From positions 1 to 19,006 of the forward strand of contig JBEKIG010000025.1 of assembly GCA_050011875.1 (NCBI GenBank): a stretch of DNA of 19,006 nt. The letters run 5' to 3'. A program made the position numbers and the translations under genes. Each line of letters opens with the position of its first letter. Position 1 is the stretch's first letter. This document shows positions 2,817 to 16,258 of the stretch, piece after piece. Source of the stretch: Nitrososphaeria archaeon (lineage in GTDB: Archaea > Thermoproteota > Nitrososphaeria > JACIWG01). The notes beneath the pieces are model-generated. The model saw only the letters and a list, made by a program, of their open reading frames with translations. It was not told where the DNA came from and did not search any database.

Positions 2817-3107
2817 TTAGACCTTCTTAGGTTCAAAGTGCTCTTGACGCTTCTTGTCATCATAATTGATCTGCTTGTTGATTCCTACAATGGTATCATC
2901 AAGGATATCAGGCAAGTAAGCTTCATGATCAGCCCAGTCTTTCATGATAACCTGTTGAGGTAAGTTAGCTATTGCATTGTGATCTTCAGAAATCATAGAT
3001 GCATCATGGTGCTGCATACGCTCTGTCGCATTTTTACCGGCATAAGCGCCATCTTTCATGGATGATTCAGATTTACTGTGATGAACTTCGTGATGATATC
3101 TTGGCAT
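2817..3107 (-). CDS. 96-aa small head-module protein of the EDH..IANLP family
   Basis: RBS GAAAGG; DASMISEDHNAIANLPQ. Confidence 0.8.
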   Translation of the reverse strand: MPRYHHEVHHSKSESSMKDGAYAGKNATERMQHHDASMISEDHNAIANLPQQVIMKDWADHEAYLPDILDDTIVGINKQINYDDKKRQEHFEPKKV

Positions 3108-3228
3108 AGTGTGCCTTTCGTAGAACTGCTTGCCCGCATGGGGTAGCAGAGGTTTTAACCTCCTACTACAGGAAGTATTACCATGAGTTCACTACAAGTG
3201 AAGGAGAAATGCTATTGTTTTGTGAGAT

Positions 3229-3258
3229 ACAAATAAAACGGACTCCGCTGGAATCCGT
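3229..3258 (-). terminator. Intrinsic terminator
   Basis: ACGGATTCC-AGC-GGAGTCCGT followed by TTTATTT; the G-U pair favours the minus strand. Confidence 0.65.
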
Positions 3259-3366
3259 CTAGAGATAAAAATCGTATGTTCTTGAAAATTAGCCTGCCAA
3301 TTTAAAATTTACAAGGATATTTCCTCCTTTTCGGGCTTCATCAAAGCCATCATTATAGTTCCACAG

Positions 3367-12260: not shown

Positions 12261-13033
12261 TTGCCGGCTCCCTTTAAAATAAACGGCCTCAGTAACACTG
12301 GCACGAATTGGGCAATTGCTTCATGCGCTTTTATTTTAGCATCTTCTGCGCAAGAAATCTGCTTTATAAATGGCAGATCTTTATGAACTTCAAGAGTATA
12401 TTCAATAAATTTATCTACTTGCGATATAATAGCGGCTAGATCTAATTTGTAATGTTCATCATGAGACATAAGTTCCTCAATCGTAAAAGCTGCACGTTTA
12501 GCGAAGCAATCGGACGTCAACACAACAGCAGTTCCTGGACATTGAATTCCGGCAGCTAAATAGCCTATAAGCTTAATAGATTCCGCTATATGGTCGAGAG
12601 TGCTTGTTGGACTAAACTGAAATTCATGAACTGATTTCTTCCAAGTACCAGTTACCGGCCGATAAGGATTTCCTTCATAGGGCTTCTTGGTTTGTTTTTT
12701 GGCATGATCTTCTATTTCTACATGGATGCGCTGTTCTTCTGGCAAATAGACATCAGTAGAAGCATCTATATTATACTGGTGCGCTAAACTAACGAGCTCA
12801 GGAAAATCTGGATCTACAAATCTTGTTTTACAATAATCATTGCATAAATAGATATAGAATCTCAGTGGATCTTTAATAGTAATCTTCTTTATTTTTTCGG
12901 CCGAAACATACTCGTCAAATGCCTCTTTATGACATTCTTCAGGATAAGGAGCTATCTTGATAGCGCCAGCCAAAGATAGTCCTAGATAATCGCCAGAATG
13001 TTGGCCATATTTCTCAAGAAACGGATACTTCAT
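12257..13033 (-). CDS. Hypothetical protein coupled to the replication initiator (start re-assigned to 13033)
   Basis: ATGA overlap with the upstream stop, GGAAGG upstream; 258 aa. Confidence 0.7.
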   Translation of the reverse strand: MKYPFLEKYGQHSGDYLGLSLAGAIKIAPYPEECHKEAFDEYVSAEKIKKITIKDPLRFYIYLCNDYCKTRFVDPDFPELVSLAHQYNIDASTDVYLPEEQRIHVEIEDHAKKQTKKPYEGNPYRPVTGTWKKSVHEFQFSPTSTLDHIAESIKLIGYLAAGIQCPGTAVVLTSDCFAKRAAFTIEELMSHDEHYKLDLAAIISQVDKFIEYTLEVHKDLPFIKQISCAEDAKIKAHEAIAQFVPVLLRPFILKGAGK

Positions 13034-13893
13034 GTCGGATAACCTTCCTGTCTTAATGCTATGCAATCTTTGAAATGCAGCCTATCTTTGTAGCTCTGCA
13101 ATTGTCTTTCAATAATCTCAGCCTTCTTGTCTGGTGCAAGTGCTAATTTCCCAATTGACTCTATAAGTCGTGATAACCTTTGGTCGCAGAACTCTTTAAA
13201 CTCTCGCGCTGTTTGCTCATTGACATAGCGACTTGTAGTCCGTGTCTTCATTTGCGCCAAGAATTGCACAGCACTTTCAATAGAATCCTGGCTAAGCCCT
13301 TCCTGTTTAAGGATTCTTTCCGGGTCCGGGTGCTCTTTAATGCTTGCTCTATTTTGTGCCGTGCCTTCCGGGTGCCATACAGGGGTTGAAACTAGGCCAT
13401 ATTTCTTCGTTGTTTCTCTATAAAGACTAAGAGCACTTGCATTAATAATAACCTCTTTTTTATATTGTGCGCCAGTATCTGGCATTGATTGTCTAGATGC
13501 CGAATTACATAGTGCTACTATGGGTATCAAAAACGATAAACAAAGCAGGCCTCTAAGTGCTGGTAATATAGCCGCAAGTTCATCTATGATCTCCGGGCGG
13601 CGCAGCTCTGGATTGAGTCCATATATATTACTATTGTTAATGCGGCGCTTTCTTGAAATAAGACCGAGCTCTCTTGCTTTCTTAATTGCCCTGCATACCG
13701 TTCTTGTACCAATACCTAATCTCTTGGCTATAGTAGCCTCAGATTCGTAGTAATTATTGTTATAATACAAACACTGATTAACCACCAAGTTGATGGTTTC
13801 TAATATTCTACCTGTCTTAAGTTGTTTGATCTCATTGAGATCTTTTAGGTTTTTTTGATTTGGGACTTGATTTTTTTGTTGTTTGTTGTACAT
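13030..13893 (-). CDS. Winged-HTH protein, putative phage replication initiator
   Basis: YESEATIAKRLGIGTRTVCRAIKKARELGLISRKRR...SNIY (HTH_36-like); first gene of the leftward operon. Confidence 0.72.
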   Translation of the reverse strand: MYNKQQKNQVPNQKNLKDLNEIKQLKTGRILETINLVVNQCLYYNNNYYESEATIAKRLGIGTRTVCRAIKKARELGLISRKRRINNSNIYGLNPELRRPEIIDELAAILPALRGLLCLSFLIPIVALCNSASRQSMPDTGAQYKKEVIINASALSLYRETTKKYGLVSTPVWHPEGTAQNRASIKEHPDPERILKQEGLSQDSIESAVQFLAQMKTRTTSRYVNEQTAREFKEFCDQRLSRLIESIGKLALAPDKKAEIIERQLQSYKDRLHFKDCIALRQEGYPT

Positions 13894-14031: not shown

Positions 14032-14073
14032 AAAATTAAAGCCGGAGATTAAAAAACTTCGGCTTTTGGTTTT
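14032..14073. terminator. Bidirectional terminator-like hairpin
   Basis: AAAGCCGGAG...CTTCGGCTTT with T tracts on both strands. Confidence 0.65.
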
Positions 14074-14095
14074 GTAAAAAGCTTGAAATCTATGC

Positions 14096-14246
14096 ACAGG
14101 TAAGGCGAAGTGGATGCGCATCCGGCTATAATTATTCTTAAGAAATATTTATAAAGGGGCCGGATGTTATGGATATATACGACAGATCTTAAGCTCTCTC
14201 CGTATATTAAAGTAACGTGCTGGTTCGATTCCAGCTACCTGTACCA
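14096..14246 (+). ncRNA. 151-nt tRNA-Leu-like RNA with elongated anticodon and variable arms
   Basis: Acceptor stem ACAGGTA/TACCTGT, discriminator A, CCA; D arm GCG-AAGTGGATG-CGC; T arm GCTGG-TTCGATT-CCAGC; anticodon-type loop CT-TAA-GA. Confidence 0.8.
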
Positions 14247-14306: not shown

Positions 14307-14335
14307 TTGCAATTCATGAAAAAAAGTTCTATAAT
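14307..14335 (+). promoter_or_regulatory. Strong sigma70 promoter of the early operon
   Basis: TTGCAA-17-TATAAT. Confidence 0.75.
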
Positions 14336-14713: not shown

Positions 14714-14895
14714 ATGTAATTGCGTGGCTGGCTCTTGCCAATATCATAATGACCGGCTTATTGATGTCTATAGCTTATATGCTTCGCCAAGATATTATTG
14801 CATTCGATGAACAGAATATTAATCAGTATAAACGCATGAAAGAAATCATTACCGATCTGTTAAAGCTAAAAGAGATAAAGAAAAAGAATGAATAA
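14710..14895 (+). CDS. Small single-TM protein
   Basis: N-terminal hydrophobic helix; overlaps both neighbouring genes. Confidence 0.7.
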   Translation: MNVIAWLALANIIMTGLLMSIAYMLRQDIIAFDEQNINQYKRMKEIITDLLKLKEIKKKNE

Positions 14896-15490
14896 TCAAT
14901 TTTTTGTATATAGATCTGATGAAATAGATAAAATAACACAGGCAATGATAGAATTCCAAAAAAGTATGAATTATATTATCAAGAATGCCAAAGGACAATT
15001 CGACTATGCTTCTCTTGATGCCATACTATATCATGTGATACCCAAAATAGCTGCTTGTAATATCCAATTGGAGCAATCTGATATGTGTTACGGAGAAGAT
15101 GTATATTTACGTACAGCTATTACTCATGCAAGCGGTCAGTTCAAAGCTTCATACAATTATCTTTATCCCAAATCGTTTATGACTACCCTTCCTAAATCTT
15201 CTAAGGATGCTGGCACCATTCAGCAAACATTGGGGGCTATAAAGTCCTATCAATGTCGTTATGCATTGAAGAATTTCCTTTGTGTACCAATCATGGACCC
15301 TGATTTTGATGATGCAAATTGCATCACTGAAGATCAAGCCAATGCTTTATATGAGATGGCCAACGGCAATCAAACAATTCTTGATACATTTATGCAGCAA
15401 TTAGGAATCGAATCAAGCATGGGTATAAAAACAGAAGATTATGATGCTGCTGTAGAAATAATGAAAATTCTTTGCAATAAAGGAAAATAA
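14888..15490 (+). CDS. erf: ERF-family single-strand annealing protein (copy 1)
   Basis: YASLDAIL, THASGQF, LGAIKSYQCRYAL, DPDFDDA. Confidence 0.8.
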   Translation: MNNQFFVYRSDEIDKITQAMIEFQKSMNYIIKNAKGQFDYASLDAILYHVIPKIAACNIQLEQSDMCYGEDVYLRTAITHASGQFKASYNYLYPKSFMTTLPKSSKDAGTIQQTLGAIKSYQCRYALKNFLCVPIMDPDFDDANCITEDQANALYEMANGNQTILDTFMQQLGIESSMGIKTEDYDAAVEIMKILCNKGK

Positions 15491-15499
15491 AGGAGCAAT

Positions 15500-16258
15500 A
15501 TGGATAGTAATGAACTCAATCTGTTATTAGACTTTGCAGGTAAGTTAAACGAACTCATTGAACAACGCGCCATAGAACTAGTTAAATCTGCACCTAAGCG
15601 AACGTTTATGTCGGCTGAAGTCAATGAGCTTGCTGCGGCTATGTCTAAAGCCCAAGGGAAATATTTGCCATTGTTCTTCAACAAGACTAATCCATATGAA
15701 CGGTGGGAATTCAATGACCTTGAAGCTATTGTTGCAGCTGTGAGACCTGCTCTTGAACAAAACGGAATATTCTTTACGCAACTGCCCTGCGTTGAGGAAT
15801 CAGGTGTTATCATCCTTTATACTCGCCTGATTCACAATTCAGGGCAATGGATTGAATGTACGTCGCGCATTGTTCCTCCTCAGAATAACCAGCAAGAGTA
15901 TGATAGCATTCTAGCTGCACAAAAGCGCTCTGCTGCTTATAGCATTTTGGGTATTGCCGGTAAGAATGATCGTACTGACGACGATTCAGAAATAGCTATG
16001 CGTACTGTTAGAAACCAGTCAGATAAGGGCACCGATATCAATCTCAGCTATGATACTAGTGATGCAAGTTATGATCGAATATCTAAAGATCAACTGCAAG
16101 AATTGGAATATGTTCTTTCAGAGTTTCCTGATATGGTAACAACACTACTTAAACGTGAACGTATTGAAACATTAGCTGATTTGCCCAAGAATAGATACCG
16201 TGCTACGTTAGATAAAACGCATGAGATTGTAGCGTTGCGTAAAGGTATAAAGAAATAG
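15500..16258 (+). CDS. erf: ERF-family single-strand annealing protein (copy 2, divergent motif)
   Basis: ELAAAMSKAQG, NKTNPY, VRPALEQNGIFFTQ, TRLIHNSGQWIE, DDDSE. Confidence 0.85.
   Translation: MDSNELNLLLDFAGKLNELIEQRAIELVKSAPKRTFMSAEVNELAAAMSKAQGKYLPLFFNKTNPYERWEFNDLEAIVAAVRPALEQNGIFFTQLPCVEESGVIILYTRLIHNSGQWIECTSRIVPPQNNQQEYDSILAAQKRSAAYSILGIAGKNDRTDDDSEIAMRTVRNQSDKGTDINLSYDTSDASYDRISKDQLQELEYVLSEFPDMVTTLLKRERIETLADLPKNRYRATLDKTHEIVALRKGIKK

What the first reader, a model, noticed from the sequence alone, without database searches (positions are those of the whole stretch)
14096..14246. Giant two-armed tRNA-Leu-derived RNA with twin self-complementary CUUAAG loops
Seen: a complete tRNA frame (7-bp acceptor, A73, encoded CCA, 3-bp GCG/CGC D stem with GG, canonical T arm, class-II 'U-stem-GU' variable-arm base) in a 151-nt RNA. 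The anticodon arm runs TCCGGC/GCCGGA, TATAA/TTATA and TATT/AATA to the loop CTTAAGA (14137-43, anticodon UAA = Leu). The variable arm runs GTTAT/GTAAC, ATATACG/CGTATAT and AGA/TCT to the loop TCTTAAGC (14187-94). Both tips carry the palindrome CUUAAG and can form 7 bp with each other. Position 8 is A, not the usual U. Known: bacterial LeuRS relies on A73 and tertiary shape rather than the anticodon, and loop-loop pairing drives HIV DIS dimers and phi29 pRNA rings. Inference: the RNA is too long to decode, so it may be a repurposed ncRNA, such as a kissing-loop oligomer, an anticodon-nuclease decoy carrying two Leu-like loops, or a LeuRS/EF-Tu sponge.
Basis: partly seen in the sequence, partly recalled or inferred. 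Interest (0 to 1): 0.9.

Follow-up and report, generated by a model that had tools for sequence, protein, structure and literature searches.

The report
Oversized tRNA-shaped element in a phage
A small uncultured phage carries a 151-base element with the frame of a transfer RNA but two greatly lengthened arms, so it cannot decode; it is a real tRNA derivative of unknown use, seen in one clonal phage only.

Summary
Window 14096-14246 (+) folds as a cloverleaf: a 7-bp acceptor stem, a 3-bp D stem with GG in its loop, a canonical T arm, A73 and an encoded CCA. The anticodon and variable arms are each 16 bp and both are capped by TCTTAAG. ARAGORN and Rfam do not call it.

It is tRNA-derived and too long to decode.
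- Every copy I found belongs to one clonal phage, at least 99.98% identical over 5-15 kb, so no covariation test is possible.
- The closest distinct relative has no such element at this spot.
- A sister phage carries a different 120-nt tRNA-like element elsewhere, with paired arms but no twin loops.
- No sigma-70 promoter precedes the element, and a terminator-like hairpin does.
- No RNA run was listed.
- I found no attB-like match, no integrase and no splice motif.

Oversized tRNA frames are frequent in the phage contigs I sampled. T4 RNAC is an old, unexplained analogue.

Verdict: a new variant of a known but poorly understood kind. Moderate interest.

The parts
14096..14246 (+). Whole tRNA-shaped element E1 (151 nt including the encoded CCA)
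   Evidence: Sequence; MFE cloverleaf; my frame scanner
14096..14102 (+). Acceptor stem, 5' strand; pairs 7 of 7 with 14236-14242
14105..14119 (+). D arm: 3-bp stem (14105-14107 / 14117-14119) and a 9-nt loop with GG. Preceded by A8 G9 at 14103-14104.
   Evidence: E2 in the sister phage has the same 8-nt loop motif AAGTGGAT and also A at position 8.
14120..14165 (+). Extended 'anticodon' arm: 16 pairs, a 5-nt bulge on the 3' side and one U/U mismatch
14137..14143 (+). 7-nt apical loop CTTAAGA, shaped like an anticodon loop with the anticodon triplet TAA; part of the 10-bp DNA palindrome 14135-14144
14166..14216 (+). Extended 'variable' arm: 16 pairs with a 4x4 internal loop and a smaller one
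14187..14194 (+). 8-nt apical loop TCTTAAGC
14219..14235 (+). T arm: 5-bp stem with loop TTCGATT
14236..14246 (+). Acceptor stem 3' strand (14236-14242), discriminator A (14243) and encoded CCA (14244-14246)
14038..14075 (.). Context: hairpin followed by a T-run on either strand, terminator-like, immediately upstream of E1
   Evidence: Read; inverted repeat I4. The scan tool did not flag it, presumably because its loop exceeds the tool's 8-nt limit.
14307..14335 (+). Context: promoter-like site TTGCAA-17-TATAAT (10 of 12) for the early-left (ORF111/Erf) operon. It lies downstream of E1, so it cannot drive E1.
13030..13893 (-). Context: replication initiator (lambda O-like, HTH), transcribed away from E1

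Best explanation
E1 is an accessory, tRNA-derived gene of an uncultured tailed phage whose host is most likely a bacterium.

What it keeps and what has changed: it retains the parts of a tRNA that processing and tRNA-binding proteins recognise. These are the acceptor/T-arm stack, the D-loop GG and T-loop elbow, A73 and the CCA end. Its anticodon and variable arms have each grown to 16 bp, so it cannot act as a decoder on the ribosome.

Most likely working (inferred): where it is transcribed, RNase P and 3' trimming cut it out as a stable RNA of about 151 nt. That RNA then acts as a tRNA look-alike that occupies some tRNA-recognising factor. This would make it comparable to the long tRNA-like stable RNA C of phage T4, whose role is still unknown.

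Shown: the anatomy, tRNA ancestry, sporadic distribution, and the absence of splice or att features.

Inferred: expression, processing and any binding role.
For: - The cloverleaf is the unconstrained MFE fold, and frames of this kind are absent from a reversed 2.0-Mb control.
- A sister phage (Rep 53%, TerL 78% identical) carries a second oversized frame, E2. It is 120 nt and shares the D-loop motif, A at position 8 and the T loop. It is co-oriented within an operon just after an endolysin gene.
- More distant relatives (TerL 46-48%) carry ordinary tRNA genes: two tRNA-Asn just downstream of TerL in L255, and one tRNA-Glu about 4.6 kb downstream of TerL in L252. So the lineage does pick up tRNA genes.
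- Single excision from the loop gives only A34 anticodons, and there is no excess of bulge-helix-bulge motifs: 12 against 11.0 +/- 4.4 in shuffles.
- Group I intron and tmRNA models do not match.
- T4 RNAC (139 nt) has a canonical T arm at its 3' end and two long hairpins. It is described as expressed, with unknown function, in passages of PMC3014915 and PMC9697503.
Against: - No sigma-70-type promoter lies upstream on the + strand. The best candidate is 8 of 12 with a 15-nt spacer. A terminator-like hairpin sits 20 nt upstream.
- All copies are clonal, so nothing shows selection on the arms or loops.
- The closest distinct relative, L245 (TerL 88%), lacks the element at this spot, so it is dispensable.
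- A at position 8 breaks the usual U8-A14 tertiary pair (recalled knowledge), which may weaken the tRNA-like fold or charging.
- There is no sequence similarity to T4 RNAC or RNAD, so that comparison is only an analogy.
Confidence: 0.42

Rival explanations
1. Decaying or neutral tRNA gene. A phage tRNA gene lost its decoding role and picked up palindromic expansions in its two exposed loops. The element has no present function.
For: - No promoter was found, and a terminator-like hairpin lies just upstream.
- It is absent from the nearest distinct relative.
- It is found in one clonal population only.
- E2 in the sister phage has a degenerate first hairpin with a 5-nt loop.
- U8 is replaced by A.
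Against: - All four original stems are still perfect (7/7, 3/3, 5/5), and both long arms pair well: 16 pairs each, with one internal mismatch in arm 1 and two internal loops in arm 2. Random decay would not be expected to keep this.
- The two loops share a 7-mer, roughly 1e-3 by chance.
- CCA is retained.
Confidence: 0.25
2. A DNA-level or antisense element. The palindromes between the divergent rep and early-left promoters would serve as protein-binding sites, such as operator or origin sites. Alternatively, the real RNA is the leftward transcript that ends at the hairpin at 14038-14075.
For: - It lies in the 484-bp divergent control region next to rep.
- A 10-bp perfect palindrome spans 14135-14144.
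- TCTTAAG occurs three times within 380 bp (13815, 14136, 14187), out of 5 CTTAAG sites in 19 kb.
- A promoter-like site on the - strand at 14391-14364 (9 of 12) faces the bidirectional hairpin.
Against: - This reading does not explain a complete tRNA frame with a sense-strand T loop, D-loop GG and CCA.
- CTTAAG is not enriched in the window overall: 5 against 6.5 expected.
- E2 sits in a different context, inside an operon.
- The relative L245 uses unrelated direct repeats in its own control region.
Confidence: 0.13
3. An insert-bearing pre-tRNA. The two long arms contain intervening sequences that are removed to give a working class II tRNA, for example Leu-UAA.
For: - Of the 35 oversized frames (out of 45 unique) that ARAGORN without -i left uncalled, ARAGORN -i as intron-containing tRNAs. 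One is a tRNA-Leu(UAA) frame that ARAGORN -i reads as having a 47-nt insert in its anticodon loop (L049).
- The bin that holds the contig is archaeal and encodes two tRNA splicing endonuclease genes.
Against: - ARAGORN -i does not call E1 or E2.
- Single excision gives only the anticodons AGG, AUG or AUA, and there is no excess of bulge-helix-bulge motifs.
- The group I intron model does not match.
- The contig and its continuation C28 are compositional outliers in the bin. The phage has an M15 cell-wall peptidase, sigma-70-type promoters and hairpin terminators, which point to a bacterial host.
Confidence: 0.07
4. A phage attachment site (attP) that copies a host tRNA gene.
For: Integrating phages often carry part of a tRNA gene (general knowledge).
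Against: - There are 0 matches to the 22-nt T-arm/acceptor string in one genome for each of 185,579 species.
- No Phage_integrase hit falls on C25 or C28; the 4 hits are all on other contigs.
- A whole frame with a matching 5' half is not needed for an att core.
Confidence: 0.03

Closest known systems
Bacterial or phage class II tRNA (Leu/Tyr/Ser type)
   Same: 7-bp acceptor stem, 3-bp D stem with GG in the loop, a canonical T arm, a discriminator base with encoded CCA, and an extra arm between the anticodon and T arms.
   Different: - The anticodon arm is 16 bp instead of 5.
- The extra arm spans 51 nt (16 bp).
- Position 8 is A.
- The total is 151 nt.
- ARAGORN and the Rfam tRNA model do not detect it.
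Phage T4 stable RNAs C and D (species 1 and 2 RNA)
   Same: They are phage-encoded and 139 and 119 nt long. RNAC has a canonical T arm next to its 3' end, paired termini and two long hairpins. Their function is unknown (passages read). They are not in Rfam.
   Different: - There is no sequence similarity.
- RNAC's terminal stem pairs only 5 of 7, and the scanner found no D arm at the tRNA position in it; RNAD has no T arm.
- The T4 RNAs sit in a tRNA gene cluster. E1 is the only tRNA-like gene on the two contigs (C25, C28) that hold most of its phage genome.
Intron-containing tRNA genes (archaeal bulge-helix-bulge type; group I intron in tRNA-Leu UAA)
   Same: Extra sequence in the anticodon region of a tRNA frame, with the triplet UAA present.
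   Different: - No splice motif is present and no canonical product can be formed.
- The inserts are far too short for a group I intron, and that model does not match.
- There is a second expansion, in the variable arm.
Loop-loop ('kissing') RNAs such as ColE1 RNA I or retroviral dimerisation hairpins
   Same: The apical loops carry a 6-nt self-complementary word, preceded by a pyrimidine-U-N-purine turn motif. The motif rule is recalled knowledge.
   Different: - The pairing is AU-rich and weak, -5.5 kcal/mol.
- There is no partner RNA, no conservation and no experiment.
- Any near-perfect DNA palindrome gives such a loop.
E2, the oversized tRNA-like element of the sister phage (L032 9247-9366, minus strand)
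   Same: It shares the D-loop motif, A at position 8, the T loop, a 3-bp D stem and two hairpins between the D and T arms. ARAGORN misses it too.
   Different: - It is 120 nt, with discriminator C and no encoded CCA.
- Its first hairpin is short with a 5-nt loop, and its loops are unrelated to TCTTAAG.
- It lies at a different genome position and is flanked by a 17-nt direct repeat.

Membership tests
tRNA (functional decoder) | Acceptor stem of 7 bp with a discriminator base and a 3' CCA (encoded or added) | tested here: met
   7 of 7 pairs, A73 and encoded CCA
tRNA (functional decoder) | T arm with a 5-bp stem and a T-loop consensus; D loop with GG | tested here: met
   Loop TTCGATT and D loop with GG
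tRNA (functional decoder) | Anticodon arm of 5 bp with a 7-nt loop, total length about 70-95 nt | tested here: not met
   The arm has 16 pairs and the total is 151 nt
tRNA (functional decoder) | Recognised by tRNA detectors or models | tested here: not met
   ARAGORN with and without introns finds 0 genes. Rfam finds no tRNA match, even at E up to 10 on 701 nt.
Archaeal-type intron-containing tRNA | A bulge-helix-bulge motif at the exon-intron borders, giving a canonical anticodon loop after excision | tested here: not met
   12 loose motif matches against 11.0 +/- 4.4 in 200 shuffles. All single excisions that keep U33 give A34 anticodons.
Group I intron in tRNA-Leu(UAA) | A ribozyme core of 200 nt or more inserted in the anticodon loop | tested here: not met
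   No Rfam match in the window. The extra sequence in the arm is about 29 nt.
tmRNA | A tRNA-like domain plus a tag reading frame | tested here: not met
   ARAGORN's tmRNA search finds 0; no Rfam match
Phage attP derived from a host tRNA | Identity of the 3' part to a host tRNA gene, and a nearby integrase | tested here: not met
   0 exact matches in genome contigs. No integrase hit on C25 or C28. Serine recombinases were not searched.
T4 RNAC-like phage stable RNA (no formal family) | A phage-encoded stable RNA of about 120-140 nt with tRNA-like termini and a T arm | tested here: inconclusive
   The architecture is alike, but there is no sequence similarity and no expression data for E1.
Kissing-loop RNA | Complementary loops whose pairing is conserved or shown by experiment | not testable with these tools
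   The complementarity is present. There is no sequence variation among copies, and E2 lacks it.

The most novel reading that the evidence does not exclude
E1 is a working two-headed tRNA mimic. The tRNA core gets it processed and CCA-ended. The two equal 16-bp arms present identical U-turn loops (TCTTAAG). These loops would either bind a dimeric anticodon-loop-recognising factor, for instance as a decoy for an anticodon nuclease or a modification enzyme, or pair with each other, within one molecule or between molecules, to build a rigid or multimeric particle.
Probability: 0.1. Interest if true: 0.8.

Novelty: new variant of a known kind. Interest (0 to 1): 0.42.

Why it matters
Phage tRNA-like RNAs that do not decode are an old unsolved problem: T4 RNAC and RNAD have had no known role for decades. 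Standard tRNA finders miss this element and many other oversized tRNA frames in the viral contigs I sampled, so the class is probably under-counted. If E1 is expressed, it would be a compact and unusually regular example to test what such mimics bind. As it stands it is a single clonal instance with no evidence of expression, so its value is as a lead rather than a discovery.

Tried and rejected
**Searches for relatives of E1**
- DNA similarity to the 50,697 phage records, both for the element and for the whole window: no match.
- BLAST of the element against 60 relatives of the bin's genome: only short AT-rich chance matches.
- Pattern scans of IMG/VR for the D-loop motif joined to the T-arm motif, with gaps of 48-138 nt. 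Across 212 motif pairs examined, 8 frames passed: E1, E2, L089 and L160 with good frames; L047 and L055 with doubtful frames; and L117 and L159, which fold as a tail joined to an ordinary-looking tRNA.
- The 17-nt D-arm string: the other 18 loci are unrelated GC-rich coding DNA.
- The search for related loci with Rep in the metagenome collection picked low-complexity peptides and found nothing.
- The TerL alignment found 18 metagenome loci and none in genome contigs.
- The arms are not repeated elsewhere in the phage family.

**Expression and earlier findings**
- RNA runs: none was listed (after a busy answer).

**Literature**
- Five searches turned up no paper on oversized two-armed phage tRNA-like RNAs. 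I read only listings, plus passages of PMC10690425, PMC3014915 and PMC9697503.
- Supplements were not opened. Supplementary tables of PMC10690425, which list candidate structured RNAs in IMG/VR, might include this element.

**Comparisons and hypotheses tested**
This number rests on recall.
- Splice and attP hypotheses were tested and rejected.

**Not attempted**
- RNA 3D modelling.
- Any trimmed-arm version of the sequence.

Full report
**1. Observation**

- a 7-bp acceptor stem (14096-14102 with 14236-14242);
- A and G at positions 8 and 9;
- a 3-bp D stem around a 9-nt loop with GG;
- a 5-bp T stem with loop TTCGATT;
- A73 followed by an encoded CCA.

The unconstrained fold is this cloverleaf: -42.4 kcal/mol, z = -2.23, with 5 of 200 shuffles folding as well. 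The 'anticodon' arm (14120-14165) and the 'variable' arm (14166-14216) each have 16 pairs. They end in a 7-nt loop (14137-14143) and an 8-nt loop (14187-14194) that share TCTTAAG.

Standard detectors miss it. ARAGORN finds nothing, with or without introns. Rfam finds nothing at gathering scores, and gives no tRNA match up to E = 10 on 701 nt.

I wrote a frame scanner that requires a 7-bp acceptor, a 5-bp T stem with a T-loop motif, and a D stem with GG. It recovers the element. For lengths of 96-220 nt it finds 0 frames in 2.01 Mb of reversed viral loci and 6 in the reversed 2.64-Mb genome. The frame is therefore real and tRNA-derived.

**2. Setting**

The window is a whole contig, C25, of a 2.64-Mb bin. 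The bin is archaeal: it has archaeal-looking tRNAs and two tRNA splicing endonuclease genes.

C25 does not look like part of that genome:
- C25 and C28 overlap by 119 nt, so together they make about 34.5 kb of one phage genome. Both are among the most deviant contigs in tetranucleotide composition.
- The genes are those of a tailed phage: large terminase, P22-type portal, RusA, a lambda O-like initiator, two Erf genes, an M15 cell-wall peptidase and C1q-like fibre proteins.
- The terminase is at most 39% identical to any cultured phage. All the named cultured phages among the 15 best hits listed infect proteobacteria; six of the 15 are unnamed environmental phage records.
- A near-consensus sigma-70 promoter and the murein peptidase point to a bacterial host.

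I read the contig as a bacterial phage that was binned with an archaeon.

E1 lies in the 484-bp gap between the leftward rep gene (start at 13893) and the rightward ORF111/Erf operon. That operon's promoter-like site (14307-14335) is downstream of E1. On E1's own strand I found no acceptable promoter; the best is 8 of 12 with a 15-nt spacer. A hairpin with T-runs on both strands (14038-14075) stands 20 nt upstream.

**3. Relatives**

Five IMG/VR contigs, one metagenome contig and record G062 carry the element. All are the same clone: 0-2 differences over 4.9-15.1 kb. Identity of the element therefore says nothing about selection, and no covariation test is possible.

The relatives differ at this locus:
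- **L245** (TerL 88%) is the nearest distinct relative. It has a different initiator and an extra ORF in this gap, and no tRNA-like frame.
- **G061** (Rep 53%, TerL 78%; synteny) ends 157 nt upstream of rep, so the E1 position cannot be read. Between terminase and portal it holds another oversized frame, E2 (L032 9247-9366, minus strand, 120 nt).
- **E2** shares the D-loop motif AAGTGGAT, A at position 8, a 3-bp D stem and the T loop with E1. It differs in its acceptor stem, discriminator C and lack of CCA. It has a short first hairpin with a 5-nt loop and one long second hairpin, and no TCTTAAG loops. It follows an M15 endolysin gene on the same strand. The last 17 nt of that gene are repeated directly after E2, which looks like an insertion scar.
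- **L248** (TerL 78%) gave no BLAST match to the E2 region and no credible frame; the portal-homologous DNA starts about 1.2 kb after TerL.
- **Relatives at 46-48% TerL identity** carry ordinary tRNA genes: two tRNA-Asn just downstream of TerL in L255, and one tRNA-Glu about 4.6 kb downstream of TerL in L252.

So this phage lineage acquires tRNA genes sporadically, and E1 and E2 are lineage-specific derivatives.

**4. Hypotheses tested and rejected**

*attP.* The 22-nt T-arm/acceptor string has 0 matches in one genome for each of 185,579 species. The 4 Phage_integrase hits in the bin are all on other contigs.

*Introns.* Single excision from the 34-nt loop closed by the basal 5-bp stem gives only the anticodons AGG, AUG or AUA. 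Loose bulge-helix-bulge patterns are no more frequent than in shuffles: 12 against 11.0 +/- 4.4, with 80 of 200 shuffles reaching 12. No group I intron or tmRNA match was found.

*Repeated mobile hairpins.* The arms occur nowhere else in the phage family.

**5. The twin loops**

Sharing a 7-mer between the two loops is unlikely by chance, roughly 1e-3, though the estimate is post hoc. The loops can form 7 pairs with each other, but the duplex is AU-rich and weak at -5.5 kcal/mol.

A self-complementary tip is also what any near-perfect DNA palindrome produces. The first arm's tip is a 10-bp perfect palindrome (14135-14144).

TCTTAAG occurs a third time at 13815 inside rep. That makes three of the five CTTAAG sites of the 19-kb window fall within 380 bp, which keeps a DNA-level reading alive.

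E2 shows no equivalent pair of loops, although its long hairpin also has a 6-nt palindrome in its apical loop.

**6. Wider picture**

In the 243 loci held at that point (2.01 Mb, mostly fetched through tRNA-like patterns, so not a fair sample), the scanner found 45 unique oversized frames.
- ARAGORN without introns calls ordinary tRNAs in 10 of them, mostly tandem genes.
- With introns allowed it more as insert-bearing tRNAs.
- 13 of the 45, including E1 and E2, stay uncalled.

Oversized tRNA frames are therefore not rare in viral contigs.

Phage T4 offers a classical analogue. RNAC (139 nt) and RNAD (119 nt) lie next to its tRNA genes. RNAC folds with a canonical T arm at its 3' end, loosely paired termini and two long hairpins. 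The passages I read say both are expressed and that their roles are unknown (PMC3014915; PMC9697503). They are not in Rfam and show no sequence similarity to E1.

**7. Reading**

What is shown:
- E1 is a tRNA derivative that cannot decode.
- It is an accessory element of one clonal phage.
- It is not an att site, not a recognisable intron-bearing tRNA, and not a known RNA family.

What is inferred:
- It is transcribed and processed to a stable CCA-ended RNA.
- It works as a tRNA look-alike.

The perfect stems, the two equal well-paired arms and the shared loop word argue for function. The missing promoter, the upstream terminator-like hairpin, A at position 8 and the absence from the nearest relative argue for a silent relic or a DNA-level role.

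My odds:

| Reading | Probability |
|---|---|
| Functional tRNA-like RNA | about 0.42 |
| Neutral relic | 0.25 |
| DNA-level or antisense element | 0.13 |
| Spliced pre-tRNA | 0.07 |
| attP | 0.03 |
| Something not considered | remainder |

I give the two-headed mimic reading about 0.1.

**8. Limits**

- No RNA run was listed.
- Supplements of papers were not read.
- The host is unknown.
- The collections hold no diverged copy of E1.

Noticed in passing
L032 9210-9400 (record G061), minus strand: E2 is a second oversized tRNA-like frame of 120 nt. It sits directly after an M15 endolysin gene. The gene's last 17 nt (ATGAAATGCATTGGTAG) are repeated right after the element, which looks like an insertion scar or a captured cassette.
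   Followed up: partly
Whole genome G000; contigs C25 and C28: The bin is archaeal: it has two tRNA splicing endonuclease genes, archaeal-type tRNAs and several GC-rich oversized tRNA frames that are probably intron-bearing. C25 and C28 overlap by 119 nt, are compositional outliers and together form about 34.5 kb of a phage with bacterial-type genes. This is likely a binning error.
   Followed up: partly
L124 (six frames), L049 (three), L043, L072, L092 and other IMG/VR loci: There are clusters of tRNA frames with inserts of 25-124 nt in the anticodon loop that ARAGORN calls only with -i. Several inserts share the word ACAGCAA or TGCAAAT. One (L049) is a tRNA-Leu(UAA) frame that ARAGORN -i reads as having a 47-nt insert in its anticodon loop. 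The hosts and any splicing route are unknown.
   Followed up: no
L164, minus strand, about 2935-3290 in reverse-complement coordinates: Two tandem oversized tRNA-like frames (131 and 126 nt) lie in an unrelated phage contig. The first shares E2's D-loop motif and exact T arm, but has an extra hairpin between the acceptor stem and the D arm.
   Followed up: partly
L034 15543-16109 (record G062, beyond the window's left end): A free-standing LAGLIDADG-type homing endonuclease gene (Pfam E = 1e-4) lies about 640 nt past the endolysin gene of the same phage.
   Followed up: no
window 14888-15490 and 15500-16258: Two adjacent Erf-family single-strand annealing genes in tandem. The relative L245 has the same pair.
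   Followed up: no
window 14038-14075: A hairpin with T-runs on both strands sits between the rep promoter region and E1. It could insulate rep from leftward read-through. The scan tool did not flag it, presumably because its loop is longer than 8 nt.
   Followed up: partly
L245 3780-3830 (read on the minus strand): The relative that lacks E1 has two direct copies of a 17-nt word (TTAACTTTCGTGTTTTA) just upstream of its different 470-aa initiator gene. They look like iterons.
   Followed up: no
L262 (T4) 1909-2172: T4 RNAC folds far better than shuffles (z = -4.6) with a canonical T arm. RNAD does not (z = -0.8) and has no T arm. Neither is in Rfam 15.
   Followed up: partly
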